From the human T2T-CHM13v2.0 reference genome, Homo sapiens, in the NCBI RefSeq assembly GCF_009914755.1, contig NC_060936.1: a stretch of DNA of 64,000 bases; one strand, written 5' to 3'. The first letter of the stretch is position 1. Each line of letters begins with the position of its first letter. This document shows positions 34,061-38,868 of this stretch, one piece after another. Position numbers and translations under genes: made by a program. The notes below the pieces were generated by a model, which worked only from the letters and a program-made list of their open reading frames with translations, was not told the DNA's origin and made no database searches.

Positions 34061-34483
34061 ATTCAACCTTGTAAATGACTGTGAAACTTCAGGGAAACTG
34101 ACATGATGAAAGATCATTTTCTTAAAAAGTTTAAAATGTAAAAGAAGAGTATGAGATGACAGTCATTAGTTCCTTTAGTAAACTCTTCTAATTTGCTTTT
34201 TTCAATCTAAATATTATTTCGAAAGCCAAATGATTAAATAATCTGGTTTCTGTCTAATAAGTTATTGCTGATCTCTAGTACTAAATTGTTTTCAAGGAAG
34301 TCAATAAAAGATGTTTTGTCTTGGGGAAGATCTATATAAAAACAGAAATTAAAGTGGGCTTAAGTTCTTCATAAACAACTTAACAAATACTAATGACAAT
34401 TTCTGGGCATTCTTGAATTACATTTCTCAATGATTTTTTAAATCAAAATCTTTGTTCAAAGGCACACAAGAAAGCATGATTTA
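34061..34483. repeat. Left arm (423 bp) of a near-perfect inverted duplication
   Basis: Reverse complement of 38435-38868. I found no substitutions by eye, only one 11-bp indel. Confidence 0.97.
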
Positions 34484-34987
34484 GTCTAGGTCCTGCTCTC
34501 TGTTGCACAGAAAGCCAATCACTAAAATAACAAGAATTGCCTAGGGAGAAGGCTTTACTCAGTTGCTGCAGCTGACAAGAATGGGAGATCAGTCTCAAAT
34601 TCACCTCCCCAATTAACTAAAACTGGGGGTTTATATAGTGGGGAAGGCATGTGGCTACATGCAGAAAAGCAGGAATTAGGGAAAGGTAAGGAAGAAAAGT
34701 TGGTCAACAGGAAATAGGTCATCTGTTAGGAAAACAGGAATTAGCAATGAGTAAGAAAGTAATCCTGACAAATGAAGGACCTGACATCTCATTGTCTAGT
34801 TGTGGCAATCTGGTAAGTTTCAGTTCATTGATACTATCTAAGAGGCCTGATGGTCAGTTTCCTGAGAAAAGGAACTCAGATAAAACAAATGTAAGTTTCT
34901 CAGATTTTAAAACTGTGAGGATCAATTTCTATGTTTATTCGAAAGAAACTATAACATCAGTTTTATGGGACATTTAGGCCAGTTTCA
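34484..34987 (-). mobile_element. Second MER66-like solo LTR, terminus interrupted by the inverted duplication
   Basis: Homologous to 23781-24266 from gtctaggtcctgct to ccagtttca, but lacks the first ~24 bp at this position. Confidence 0.8.
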
Positions 34988-35029
34988 ACAATTCAAAATA
35001 ATTATCACACTTTAAAAATTAATATTAAT

Positions 35030-35270
35030 TGCTTAGTTTCATTTAACATCCTTGTGTTAAAATTTTCTCATTTTCTCATAAAGTTTAACAGTTGTTTATT
35101 TGAGTCAGAATTCAAATAAGCTTCTGTACATTACAATTGGTTTTAAGTTCTTATAAGACTCTATAGGTTTTCCCTTCATAATTTTTCTTGCAATTTATTT
35201 GTTAAAGAAATTGGGTCATTTGTCCTATTGAGTGCTCCACTGTCTGTTTTTATTATTGTATTTCTGTAAT
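35030..35270 (-). mobile_element. Old L1M (L1MC/ME-like) 3' fragment
   Basis: ttgtttatttgagtcagaattcaaataag ... tttgttaaagaaattgggtcatttgtcctat. Confidence 0.5.
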
Positions 35271-35391
35271 ATAGATCTTTGAAAAATTGTCTCTATTAAT
35301 TGTGTTAATAATACACTTGCTGTTACAACACTTATGGTGCTGGTTTGGTGACACATGACATATTACATTTTCAAAATGTATTAGTTTTATT

Positions 35392-35694
35392 GTTTATTTA
35401 TTTTTTTATTTTTTCTGAGAGAGTCTCACTCTGTCGCCCAGGCTGGAGTGCAATGGTGCTATCTTGGCTCACTGCAACCTCCACCTCCTGGGTTCAAGCA
35501 ATTCTCCTGCCTCAGCCTCCAAAGTAGCTGGGATTACAGGCACGCACCACCAGGTCTGGCTAATTTTTGTATTTTTAGTAGAGATGGGGTTTCACCATGT
35601 TGGCCAGGCTGGTCTCAAAATCCTGACCACGTGATCTACCTGCCTCAGACTCCCAAAGTGCTGTGATTACTGATGTGAGCCACTGCGCCCAGCC
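35392..35694 (-). mobile_element. AluS, full length
   Basis: TSD tagttttatt. Confidence 0.93.
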
Positions 35695-36120
35695 TAGTTT
35701 TATTTTTTAAGAGACAAGAGTAGGCAAATTTCCAATATCTATGATAGTATTGGTACATTTGATGAAGAGATTGCTTTGAAGAAATTTCATTATGTTTATA
35801 CATTTAAATAACTAAAGTTAAATTAAATGTTTTCATTACATAAAAGGGTACAAAGCATAGTTATGAAAGCTTAGAGATTTAATATGTGTCTAGAAGGTGA
35901 TAAAATGTTGCATAGACTTGGTGTAATTTAAGGTGATACTTGAAAAATGGTTAGAATTTGGTATAATAGACACAGGTAGGGGGTATTCCCATAGGAGTTA
36001 TAGCATGAGTAAAGGCACAGAAAAATAGAAAAGTACAAGTGAGATAAAAACCCCTCTTGTCTTTTATCCTGTGACAAAGATAGTAGAACATAAACACAGA
36101 AACATAAGAATATTTTATAA

Positions 36121-36402
36121 GGCTTGGTGCAGTGTCTCACACTTGTAATCCCAGCACTTTGGGAGGCCGAGGTGAGCGGATCAAGAGGTCAGGAGTTTGA
36201 GACCATCTTGGCCAACATGGCGAAACACTGCCTCTACTAAAAATACAAAAAGTAGCCAGATGTGGTGGCGGGTGCCTGTAATCCCAGCTACTTGGGAGGC
36301 TGAGGCAAGAGAACTGCTTGAACCCAGGAGGTGGAGGTTGCAGTGAGCCGAGATTACGCCACTGCACTGGGTGACAGCAAGACTCCATCTCAAAAAAAAA
36401 AA
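36121..36402 (+). mobile_element. AluS, full length with a small internal deletion
   Basis: TSD gaatattttataa. Confidence 0.93.
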
Positions 36403-38434
36403 CGAATATTTTATAAAGGATCTTGAATATCAAAATTTACTTTGAGTCTTCACTAATCAGCTGCATGTTTTAGAAAATTTATTGTATGTCTTTGACCTTT
36501 GCTTCCTTCACCTATAATTTCACTTATCTATTTGAGAATAATATCAAGACACAAGCCTAGATACATTCATTTCAATTCAAATATTCGATTCTGAAGTATG
36601 AATTAGATAAGCAATACAACATTTGAATTTCTCTAGGTCAGAGGTATCGTGGGAAGTATTCAAGGCTTGAGTTAGCATGATAAACATCGGAATTGATGGA
36701 AAACATAGGTACAAATGGAATTATAGATATTTAATTAGTATGACTAGGTATTGATTTCTCCTCTGTAATAATTGAAAGGGAAATGGAAAGAGTCAGCTGT
36801 TGAGATTTTCAGCCTATATTATTAGGAAAATTGTGGTCCTCTGGATAGAAATAAAGAAATTTAAGTAAGGAGTTTATTGAGAGCTGGAGAATAAAAGAAG
36901 GAGAATGGAGAGTTTGATGTGGTGAGTTTGAAGCTCACGTAAATGGACAAGTCTTTCATTCAGTTGGTGCCGATGGATGGGAATATGAACAGAGGTTAAT
37001 TTAAGGAGTAGAATATTAGTTTAAATCTTAGTAGCAAGTGAATTACTAAGTAAACAATGCATAAAATATTTGAGGAAAGAGGATATACTCTTGAGGGAAA
37101 AATATCATGCCTTTAAGAGATGTGGAAACAAGCACCCCAAAAAGGAAAGAGAAAATGGGACAAAAATGATGGTGAACTAATTGGGTCAGCTTACTGGAAT
37201 GCCATAATGCCTGGTCTATGAATAGGAGAGGCTCAAAAAGAGGCAGGGACCAACATGGTCAAATACAAAGACTTTAGAACACAGTGAGCATTGAAGAAAA
37301 CAAGATAGCAGCTTCACCAGTGCAAGAAAGCAGAACAGAAGCTGCCTTTCAAGGGATTACAGTGAGAGGGTTTGGTGTAAGAATTCAGGTTCAAAGTACA
37401 GTATCCTTATATAATAATTCAGAAAACACACATGGACCATAAAATGAAATTGATTTTGGCCAAATCATTCAAACTTTATGGACTTTGTTGTTTATCCAGT
37501 TCTGTGCTAAGATTTATATTATGGCACGTCTTTAAAATAATGAGGTGGGGGGACCAGTAAGGTGGCTTCAACTCACTAAAAGAAAATATATTGTTTCATT
37601 GTCATCTATTTTGCTAATATTTGTGTTCAATTTAGAGAAAGTAGGGTAGACATAGTGGTAAACAGTTCTCTTACTCTTGAATTGACAAGTAGACTGAGAA
37701 TTTCACAAAAGGCTTTTCCTCACTTTGAGTGTTTTTATTCTTTAATTTTCAAAATGCTATTTCACTGAATTGAGACAGTTTGGTTTTTATTTCTGAATTA
37801 CTTTCTGATATTATTATTACTGAGGTAGTTTAGCTAGTTGTGGCCAGTTGTTTTGGTGCTCAGTGTAGTTAGAATACAGATTGCATTATACACAAATAAC
37901 AATTTATCACATGCCAAATGTGCTCTGTGAATCTGAAAAGCTCCCTTTATATGAGGGTATATTTCCCTCAAGCCAGGCAATTTTAAGGACCTGCAAGCTC
38001 CCACCACCAACTAGCTCAGTGTAGTAAAAGTTAATTTAGTAAACACATCATCATCCTAAGTAATCCTTTTCCTTGACTAAAATACCCTCTGCTTGGCAGA
38101 GAAGCAATTGGATCAACTACATCAGGACTCCAAGTGATCCCACCCTGATTCCAACACCCCCATGTTGTTCTTGTTTCCTTGGAGGCCTTGAAAACTGTGC
38201 ATGCACAGCAACCGGATTCATGTTGAGCCATTCCAATTCATCTGAGAAGCGATTCTCCACTTAGGCATCAACCCATGACCATCACAGGGTGTGTGCACAT
38301 GTCCTGGGTTTATCAGGTCTAACTATATCTTTCAGAATACTGATTCCAGAACTCTTAGGTAACGCAGAGATCAGTTGAACTTAATGTATAAATGTGCATT
38401 TTATATATAAAATATTGCTCTTCAAAATTTGGCT

Positions 38435-38868
38435 TAAATCATGCTTTCTTGTGTGCCTTTGAACAAAGATTTTGATTTAAAAAATCATTGAGAAATGTAA
38501 TTCAAGAATGCCCAGAAATTGTCATTAGTATTTGTTAAGTTGTTTATGAAGAACTTAAGCCCACTTTAATTTCTGTTTTTATATAGATCTTCCCCAAGAC
38601 AAAACATCTTTTATTGACTTCCTTGAAAACAATTTAGTACTAGAGATCAGCAATAACTTATTAGACAGAAACCAGATTATTTAATCATTTGGCTTTCGAA
38701 ATAATATTTAGATTGAAAAAAGCAAATTAGAAGAGTTTACTAAAGGAACTAATGACTGTCATCTCATACTCTTCTTTTACATTTTAAACTTTTTAAGAAA
38801 ATGATCTTTCATCATGTCAGTGAAACTTTAGTTTCCCTGAAGTTTCACAGTCATTTACAAGGTTGAAT
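38435..38868. repeat. Right arm (434 bp) of the inverted duplication
   Basis: Reverse complement of 34061-34483 plus an extra tgaaactttag at about 38821-38831. Confidence 0.97.

What the first reader, a model, noticed from the sequence alone, without database searches (positions are those of the whole stretch)
34061..38868. Near-perfect 423-bp non-TE inverted duplication spanning a 3.95-kb spacer
Seen: 34061-34483 is the reverse complement of 38435-38868 with no substitutions that I could find and a single 11-bp indel (tgaaactttag, right arm only). The arms are unique-looking intronic sequence, not Alu or L1. Inference: such identity implies a very recent, possibly human-specific or polymorphic event, or ongoing gene conversion. 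Established: identical inverted repeats can mediate NAHR inversion of the spacer and also produce false inversion calls in paired-end data. I cannot tell whether it is already catalogued.
Basis: partly seen in the sequence, partly recalled or inferred. Interest (0 to 1): 0.8.

Follow-up and report, generated by a model that had tools for sequence, protein, structure and literature searches.

The report
Short inverted duplication in NAV3 intron
A 423-base piece of a NAV3 intron was copied backwards into an old retroviral remnant about 4 kb away, an ordinary example of the commonest kind of small inversion-type rearrangement in human genomes.

Summary
Window 34061-34483 is the exact reverse complement of 38435-38868: 0 substitutions in 423 aligned bases and one 11-base indel. 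These are the only two copies in the genome.

The sequence also shows which copy is new. The left arm interrupts an old solo LTR. The LTR's first 4 bases and a target-site duplication-like 4-mer lie directly left of the arm, and the LTR body from about profile position 19-25 onward lies directly right of it. About 15-20 LTR bases are missing. So the right arm is the source. The left arm is an inverted copy inserted 3,951 bases upstream, with about 1 and 3-4 bases of microhomology at its junctions. The spacer is still in its original orientation in this haplotype.

This fits the known class of short inverted duplications: under 1 kb, inserted within 5 kb of the other copy, and attributed to replication or repair template switching (Sudmant 2015; Schloissnig 2025).

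Not testable here: age, human specificity, polymorphism and NAHR flipping. Identity alone gives a bound of about 7 Myr (95%). No catalogue entry was found, but those look-ups were weak. Interest is low.

The parts
34053..34056 (+). Probable 5' target-site duplication of the interrupted solo LTR (CCAA, against ACAA at the 3' side)
   Evidence: 3 of 4 bases match the 4-mer after the LTR's 3' end. The family's 4-bp duplication is supported in 9 of 18 copies (at least 3 of 4 matching, 5 exact), against 13.7% in mismatched-pair controls.
34057..34060 (+). First 4 bases (TGTT) of the solo LTR, stranded to the left of the inserted arm
   Evidence: The LTR family starts with these 4 bases. Together with the preceding 4-mer, 7 of 8 bases match expectation. 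An 8-mer this close occurs at 63 of 63,993 plus-strand positions in the window.
34061..34483 (-). Left arm: the derived, inverted 423-nt copy, inserted into the LTR
   Evidence: Exact reverse complement of the right arm apart from the 11-nt indel. Flanked on both sides by parts of one LTR.
34484..34987 (+). Body of the old solo LTR. The profile alignment covers positions 19-497 of 498 at 34478-34986, so its first few bases overlap the end of the arm as microhomology.
   Evidence: nhmmer E = 2.1e-127. 41 further matches of 70-80% identity elsewhere in the genome, all starting at query 1174-1209, i.e. at the arm's inner end.
34988..34991 (+). 3' target-site duplication of the LTR (ACAA)
34484..38434 (.). 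Spacer of 3,951 nt, in its original orientation in this haplotype. It holds the LTR body and an inverted Alu-like pair, and no annotated exon.
   Evidence: The orientation follows from the LTR start and LTR body lying on the same strand on either side of the left arm. Exon positions come from the hub's gene table.
38435..38868 (+). Right arm: the source copy (434 nt), lying 305 nt upstream of the NAV3 exon at 39174-39242
   Evidence: The 2.1 kb around it is unique in the genome apart from the left arm. Sequence up to the exon was read.
38819..38832 (.). 11-nt indel present only in the right arm (four equivalent placements within this span)
   Evidence: For two of the four placements, the 11-mer is the reverse complement of the 11 nt lying 7 nt away in the same arm, at 10 of 11 positions.
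38838..38848 (.). Neighbouring 11 nt that the indel mirrors in inverted orientation (10 of 11)
   Evidence: offset 20-30 from the outer end of the arm.

Best explanation
This is a one-off local inverted duplication with no sign of function. The 434-nt stretch at 38435-38868, in the intron just upstream of a NAV3 exon, is the original. DNA broke, or a replication fork stalled, inside an old solo LTR 3.95 kb upstream. A free 3' end paired by 3-4 bases (TTT or TTTA) with the opposite strand at the inner edge of the source. It copied about 423-434 nt and rejoined the other side of the break through about 1 base of homology. About 15-20 nt of the LTR were lost. This is microhomology-mediated template switching, of the FoSTeS/MMBIR type or synthesis-dependent break repair.

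Shown here: the identity of the arms, their uniqueness in the genome, the interrupted LTR, and the spacer's orientation.

Inferred: the order of steps, the microhomology (the pre-insertion LTR sequence is judged from relatives), and whether the process was replicative or break repair.

The 11-nt difference is either a slip during copying, which would be a loss in the left arm between 3-nt repeats, or a later small template-switch insertion in the right arm. It cannot be polarised here.

Two consequences follow. There is now a pair of identical inverted repeats that could occasionally flip the spacer. The NAV3 pre-mRNA can also form a long intronic RNA duplex.
For: 1. The arms are identical over 423 nt with one 11-nt indel and are the only 2 copies in the assembly.

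2. Directly right of the left arm begins a repeat with 41 further matches elsewhere in the genome, out of 1,474 first-look candidates of which 40 were scored. All matches start at query 1174-1209, which is window 34473-34508.

3. In 18 fetched full-length copies, that repeat extends about 24 nt further 5' than in the window copy. It starts with TG, ends with CA, and has 4-bp target-site duplications: 9 of 18 copies match at 3 or more of 4 positions, against 13.7% in controls.

4. A profile of the 18 copies aligns to the window only from profile position 19 onward, at 34478-34986. A second, complete copy at 23781-24264 aligns from position 1.

5. The 8 nt directly left of the arm match 'the 3' target-site duplication plus the first 4 LTR bases' at 7 of 8 positions. 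The background frequency is about 0.1% per position. The two alternative flanks (start of B reverse-complemented, end of the spacer) each have 5 mismatches of 8.

6. The A flank (33200-34060) and the 2.1 kb around the right arm are otherwise unique, so no other repeat accounts for the junctions.

7. Size (423 nt), distance (3,951 nt), inverted orientation, absence of retrotransposition marks and short junction microhomology all match the published class.
Against: - No outgroup or second human haplotype could be examined. The ancestral state is reconstructed from paralogous LTR copies, not observed.
- The 8-mer argument was made after seeing the data, and three candidate flanks were looked at.
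- Exactly TTTA at the junction column occurs in only 1 of 18 relatives, while TTTG occurs in 8 of 18. The microhomology is therefore 3 or 4 nt and is inferred.
- The extra templated-looking 11 nt lie in the arm I call the source. In a template-switch event one would expect such scars in the new copy. This is the one feature that pulls toward the opposite polarity.
- Nothing dates the event.
Confidence: 0.8

Rival explanations
1. Opposite polarity: the left arm is the original and the right arm is the new inverted copy, carrying an 11-nt templated scar made during its synthesis.
For: The 11-nt extra stretch, which is 10 of 11 an inverted copy of its neighbour, lies in the right arm. Small templated insertions are typical of newly synthesised copies in template-switch events (general knowledge, recalled).
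Against: The left arm would then have to be a unique 423-nt sequence sitting exactly between LTR bases 1-4 and about base 19-25. The later duplication would also have had to copy precisely that interrupting segment, end to end. The 7-of-8 match at the left junction (about 0.1% background) and the coincidence of the right junction with the LTR break argue against this.
Confidence: 0.06
2. The structure is the footprint of an inversion made by staggered breaks (the isochromatid model). The spacer was inverted and the staggered ends were filled in, leaving inverted duplications at both ends.
For: Inverted duplications flanking inverted segments are the signature described for Drosophila inversions (Ranz 2007, PMC1885836; search listing and abstract only).
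Against: The LTR's first 4 bases (left of the arm) and its body (right of the arm) are on the same strand and in the correct order. The spacer's left end is therefore not inverted relative to the left flank. The missing LTR 5' piece is not at the other breakpoint: 5 of 8 mismatches there, and the profile search found no significant hit near 38434 or 38869.
Confidence: 0.03
3. The duplication is old (well before the human-chimpanzee split) and the arms are kept identical by intrachromosomal gene conversion.
For: Identity alone cannot separate a young origin from conversion. An unconverted 11-nt indel amid perfect identity is compatible with conversion tracts that stop at a heterology (inference).
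Against: Arms of 423 nt are short for efficient conversion (recalled). Zero of 423 differences is most simply explained by a young age, with a median estimate of about 1.6 Myr. No direct test was possible.
Confidence: 0.12
4. Assembly artefact in the CHM13 assembly.
For: None from the sequence.
Against: The structure has the anatomy of a biological insertion: both flanks are colinear, a small part of the target is lost, and junction microhomology lies inside a recognisable LTR. It is not a fold-back chimera without a spacer. The whole structure is 4.8 kb, shorter than single long reads (recalled property of the assembly's data). Reads were not available.
Confidence: 0.02

Closest known systems
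Short local inverted duplications ('Inverted Dup' / inv-dup) of human structural-variant catalogues (Sudmant et al. 2015, PMC4617611; Schloissnig et al. 2025, PMC12350158)
   Same: A duplicated stretch under 1 kb, inserted in inverted orientation within 5 kb of the other copy, and not linked to retrotransposition. This is the commonest inversion-type class, with a median length of 284 bp. Most cases have 1-15 bp of microhomology at their junctions, and a replicative origin is proposed. Here: 423 nt, 3,951 nt away, about 1 and 3-4 nt of microhomology.
   Different: Those are polymorphic calls against a reference. Here the structure sits in the reference-quality assembly itself, and its frequency in people is unknown. 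It was not found in the supplements I could search.
Dispersed duplication with insertion-site deletion (a complex-SV class of population SV catalogues; name recalled, not seen in any call)
   Same: A copy inserted elsewhere, with loss of a few bases at the insertion site. Here about 15-20 nt of the LTR are lost.
   Different: The label is recalled only. No membership criteria were checked against a source.
[quoted passage not shown]
   Same: Highly identical inverted repeats bracket a unique segment. Such repeats are recurrent inversion hotspots.
   Different: The arms are 423 nt, against 654 bp to 24.2 kb in the 24 NAHR inversions of that study. The spacer is 4 kb. No second orientation is known, and the haplotype here is uninverted.
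Short template-switch mutations that create local hairpins (recalled from Loytynoja and Goldman 2017; not read here)
   Same: The 11-nt indel mirrors, in inverted orientation, the 11 nt lying 7 nt away, at 10 of 11 positions.
   Different: Direction (gain or loss) is unresolved. It applies only to the 11-nt detail, not to the 423-nt duplication.

Membership tests
Short local inverted duplication (inv-dup SV class) | Duplicated stretch shorter than 1 kb | tested here: met
   423 / 434 nt. Criterion.
Short local inverted duplication (inv-dup SV class) | Copy inserted within 5 kb of the other copy, in inverted orientation | tested here: met
   3,951 nt between the arms, reverse complement. Criterion.
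Short local inverted duplication (inv-dup SV class) | Not a product of retrotransposition or transposition (no poly-A, target-site duplication or terminal repeats; not multicopy) | tested here: met
   2 of 2 genome matches are the arms themselves. The left arm's flanks are TGTT and GTCT, with no poly-A.
Short local inverted duplication (inv-dup SV class) | Short microhomology (1-15 bp) at the junctions | tested here: inconclusive
   About 1 nt (A) and 3-4 nt (TTT or TTTA) when the pre-insertion LTR is judged from 18 relatives. The true ancestral target sequence was not observed.
Short local inverted duplication (inv-dup SV class) | Presence/absence polymorphism among people | not testable with these tools
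   No human haplotypes other than this assembly. Supplement look-ups found nothing on chr12 at my estimated coordinates.
NAHR inversion mediated by inverted repeats | Highly identical inverted repeats at both ends of the segment | tested here: met
   100% identity over 423 nt.
NAHR inversion mediated by inverted repeats | Repeat length within the range shown to mediate inversions (654 bp or more in the set read) | tested here: not met
   423 nt against 654 bp to 24.2 kb.
NAHR inversion mediated by inverted repeats | Both orientations of the spacer exist | not testable with these tools
   Only one haplotype is available. It carries the original orientation.
Inversion by staggered breaks with duplicated ends | The segment between the duplicated ends is inverted relative to the ancestral order | tested here: not met
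   The LTR start and LTR body are colinear across the left arm.
Transposable element (for the arms) | Multiple dispersed copies with defined ends and target-site duplications | tested here: not met
   Only 2 copies. No target-site duplication or terminal repeats.
Solo LTR of an endogenous retrovirus (for the insertion target; the class-I-like label is recalled from the 4-bp duplication) | About 500 nt, TG...CA ends, short target-site duplication, many diverged copies, no adjacent internal region | tested here: met
   Profile length 498. 41 matches of 70-80% identity. Ends and 4-bp duplications. The neighbouring 861 nt are unique in the genome apart from one roughly 40-nt stretch with 4 short matches. 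The family name was not determined.

The most novel reading that the evidence does not exclude
The left arm arose on the human lineage, or is still polymorphic. If so, it gave the NAV3 pre-mRNA a perfect 423-bp intronic RNA duplex with a 3.95-kb loop, ending 305 nt upstream of a 69-nt coding exon. The computed duplex energy is about -695 kcal/mol. Such a duplex would be an unusually strong non-Alu substrate for ADAR editing, could alter usage of that exon, and its arms could flip the spacer by NAHR in some haplotypes.
Probability: 0.07. Interest if true: 0.5.

Novelty: new member of a known kind. Interest (0 to 1): 0.2.

Why it matters
In itself it matters little. It is one more example of the commonest class of small inversion-type rearrangement, in an intron, touching no annotated exon and not overlapping the one annotated enhancer (26144-26705, hub table).

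It is useful in three modest ways:
- It is a clean worked example. The interrupted LTR lets source, copy, target loss and junction microhomology be read from a single genome, without an outgroup.
- Identical inverted arms 4 kb apart will produce inversion-like discordant read pairs at this NAV3 locus, so SV callers and users should expect false inversion calls.
- If the left arm proves human-specific or polymorphic, it is a natural test of what a perfect long intronic RNA duplex does to editing and splicing of a neuronal gene.

Tried and rejected
- Literature search for NAV3 + inversion + inverted repeat: 0 papers. NAV3 + A-to-I + intron + inverted repeat: none of the 10 listed papers mentions NAV3.
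- Catalogue look-ups in supplements used coordinates that I estimated from a recalled GRCh38/GRCh37 end of NAV3, so negative results are weak.
  - Sudmant 2015: 1 file held, 0 hits. The site tables seem not to be held.
  - Schloissnig 2025: 3 files, one cut when stored; the only hit was an unrelated chr17 Alu.
  - Porubsky 2023: 3 files, 0 hits.
  - Chaisson 2019: 3 files, 0 hits.
  - Mao 2023 preprint: no supplement held.
  - One search used a PMC id that I recalled wrongly. It opened an unrelated paper and one look-up was wasted.
- Aguado 2014, Giner-Delgado 2019 and the 2026 ultralong-read inversion paper do not mention chr12, 12q21 or NAV3 in their main text.
- Rejected: the arms as a transposable element.
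- Rejected: the two same-family LTRs at 23781 and 34478 as the ends of one provirus. The first has its own flanking 4-mers (3 of 4 matching), and the sequence before the second is unique in the genome.
- Rejected: staggered-break inversion.
- Rfam scan of 33000-40000: 0 matches.
- One search failed on term length and was rephrased.
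Full report
**Observation**

The two arms were read on both strands and aligned.
- 34061-34096 pairs with 38868-38833, and 34097-34483 pairs with 38821-38435.
- This gives 423 aligned bases, no substitution, and one 11-nt stretch present only in the right arm.
- The indel has four equivalent placements within 38819-38832, because 3 nt (ACT in arm orientation) repeat at its edges.
- The first base outside each end of the arms differs, so the boundaries are exact.
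- The repeat finder lists the pair as 401 nt at 99% only because it extends without gaps.
- A search of the window's own assembly (3.1 Gb, 24 contigs) with the left arm returned two candidates, both scored, and both are the arms themselves.
- Of the 19 inverted pairs of 150 nt or more in the window, this is the only one above 91%. The others are Alu-like pairs of 75-91%.

**What lies around the arms**

- A search with 33300-35350 gave 41 further matches besides itself and the right arm, at about 38 places. This came from 1,474 first-look candidates of which 40 were scored.
- All 41 cover query 1174-1209 to about 1600-1702, at 70-80% identity. An old interspersed repeat of about 500 nt therefore starts exactly where the left arm ends.
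- The left flank 33200-34060 is unique in the genome apart from one roughly 40-nt stretch with four short matches.
- The 2.1 kb around the right arm (37500-39600) matched only itself and the left arm.

**The repeat is a solo LTR that the left arm interrupts**

- I fetched 18 of the roughly 38 places with 300-nt flanks, choosing those whose match reached both ends of the repeat, and aligned them with the window.
- The 18 copies stay alike for about 24 nt further 5' than the window copy does.
- The family begins with TG and ends with CA.
- Its flanking 4-mers match at 3 or more of 4 positions in 9 of 18 copies (5 exact). Mismatched-pair controls give 13.7%. Flanking 5-mers and 6-mers fit worse.
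- This is the anatomy of a retroviral solo LTR with a 4-bp target-site duplication. I did not determine its family name.
- A profile of the 18 copies (498 positions) aligns to the window at 34478-34986 from profile position 19 only (E = 2.1e-127).
- A second copy at 23781-24264 aligns from position 1 (E = 4.1e-145).
- That second copy has its own flanking 4-mers, 3 of 4 alike. With the unique sequence before 34061, this shows two separate solo LTRs, not one provirus.

**Where the missing LTR start is**

- The 4 nt directly left of the left arm (34057-34060) are the family's first four bases.
- The 4 nt before them (CCAA) match the 4-mer that follows the LTR's 3' end (ACAA, 34988-34991) at 3 of 4 positions.
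- Taken as one 8-mer, 7 of 8 bases fit. An 8-mer this close to expectation occurs at 63 of 63,993 plus-strand positions of the window, about 0.1%.
- The two other flanks where the LTR start would lie under other models each have 5 mismatches of 8. These are the reverse complement of the sequence after the right arm, and the end of the spacer.
- The profile search found no other significant piece of the LTR near the right arm.
- This test was framed after seeing the alignment and covered three positions, so the effective significance is nearer 0.3%.

**Reconstruction**

- Before the event, the left flank ran straight into an intact LTR.
- The 423-nt left arm now sits between LTR base 4 or 5 and about base 20-25. 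About 15-20 LTR bases are gone.
- The left arm is therefore the derived copy, and the right arm, in otherwise unique sequence, is the source.
- The LTR start and LTR body are colinear and on the same strand across the arm. The spacer in this haplotype is therefore in its original orientation. That excludes an inversion with staggered breaks, and it excludes an odd number of later flips.
- At the outer junction, the arm's first base (A) equals LTR base 5, which is A in 18 of 18 relatives.
- At the inner junction, the arm's last bases TTTA fall on LTR columns that read TTTG in 8 of 18 relatives and TTTA in 1 of 18.
- This gives about 1 nt and 3-4 nt of microhomology.

**Mechanism (inferred)**

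- A break or stalled fork inside the LTR freed a 3' end.
- That end annealed by a few bases to the opposite strand 3.95 kb away and copied 423-434 nt.
- It then rejoined the other side of the break with minimal homology and a small loss of target sequence.
- This is the pattern described for FoSTeS/MMBIR-type template switching or synthesis-dependent microhomology-mediated repair.
- I cannot tell replication from break repair.

**The 11-nt indel**

- For two of its four placements, the 11-mer is the reverse complement of the 11 nt lying 7 nt away in the same arm, at 10 of 11 positions.
- It therefore looks like a small template-switch product that forms a 9-bp hairpin stem.
- One reading: the source already had it and the copy lost it by slippage between the 3-nt repeats during error-prone synthesis.
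- The other reading: the source gained it after the duplication.
- My rough weighing finds the two comparable. An outgroup would decide.
- The extra bases lie in the arm I call the source. This is the one feature that pulls toward the opposite polarity, and I give that rival 6%.

**Age**

- Zero differences in 423 nt was evaluated at a recalled rate of 0.5e-9 per site per year per lineage, assuming no gene conversion.
- This gives a 95% upper bound of 7.1 Myr and a median of 1.6 Myr.
- 'Recent' is reasonable. 'Human-specific' or 'polymorphic' is not shown. An old duplication kept identical by conversion is not excluded.

**Comparison with what is known**

- Sudmant et al. 2015 (passages read) characterised 229 inversion calls. 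Only 20% were simple, and 54% were inverted duplications. [quoted passage not shown]
- Schloissnig et al. 2025 (passages read) found inverted duplications to be the commonest class outside mobile-element events: 277 events with a median of 284 bp. Most had 1-15 bp of microhomology at their junctions, and the authors suggest a replicative origin.
- The present structure meets each criterion I could test.
- For NAHR, Giner-Delgado et al. 2019 (passages read) report inverted repeats of 654 bp to 24.2 kb for 24 NAHR inversions. The 423-nt arms fall below that range, so flipping is possible in principle but unproven.
- I found no paper or supplement naming this site. The supplement searches used coordinates I estimated and files that were partly missing or cut, so this is weak evidence that the site is uncatalogued.

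**Possible consequences**

- Both arms lie in the same NAV3 intron on the transcribed strand.
- The right arm ends 305 nt before the exon at 39174-39242 (and the hub's table).
- The two arms as RNA give a computed duplex energy of -694.6 kcal/mol at 28% G+C.
- Editing or splicing effects are speculation.
- Rfam finds nothing in 33000-40000.

**Verdict**

This is a real, biologically coherent, ordinary short inverted duplication whose polarity can be read from the interrupted LTR. Interest is low. It would rise only if the structure proves human-specific or polymorphic with an effect on NAV3 RNA.

Noticed in passing
window 23781-24266: A second, complete solo LTR of the same family as the one the left arm interrupts. 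It is in the same orientation, 10.7 kb upstream, with its own flanking 4-mers (3 of 4 alike). It is not the partner of the 34478 copy in one provirus.
   Followed up: partly
window 35447-35695 and 36120-36368: Inside the spacer, an inverted pair of Alu-like repeats: 249 nt, 85% complementary, 424 nt apart. This would be a second, weaker RNA duplex nested in the loop of the 423-nt one.
   Followed up: no
window 44863-45046 and 45194-45377: A tight inverted pair of Alu-like repeats, 184 nt, 91% complementary, only 147 nt apart. After the finding itself it is the most similar inverted pair in the window. It lies in the intron between the exons at 42707-42846 and 50789-51815.
   Followed up: no
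window 33413-33459: A stretch of about 40 nt in otherwise unique sequence has four short matches of 91-98% identity elsewhere in the genome. It is probably a fragment of a common repeat or low-complexity sequence.
   Followed up: no
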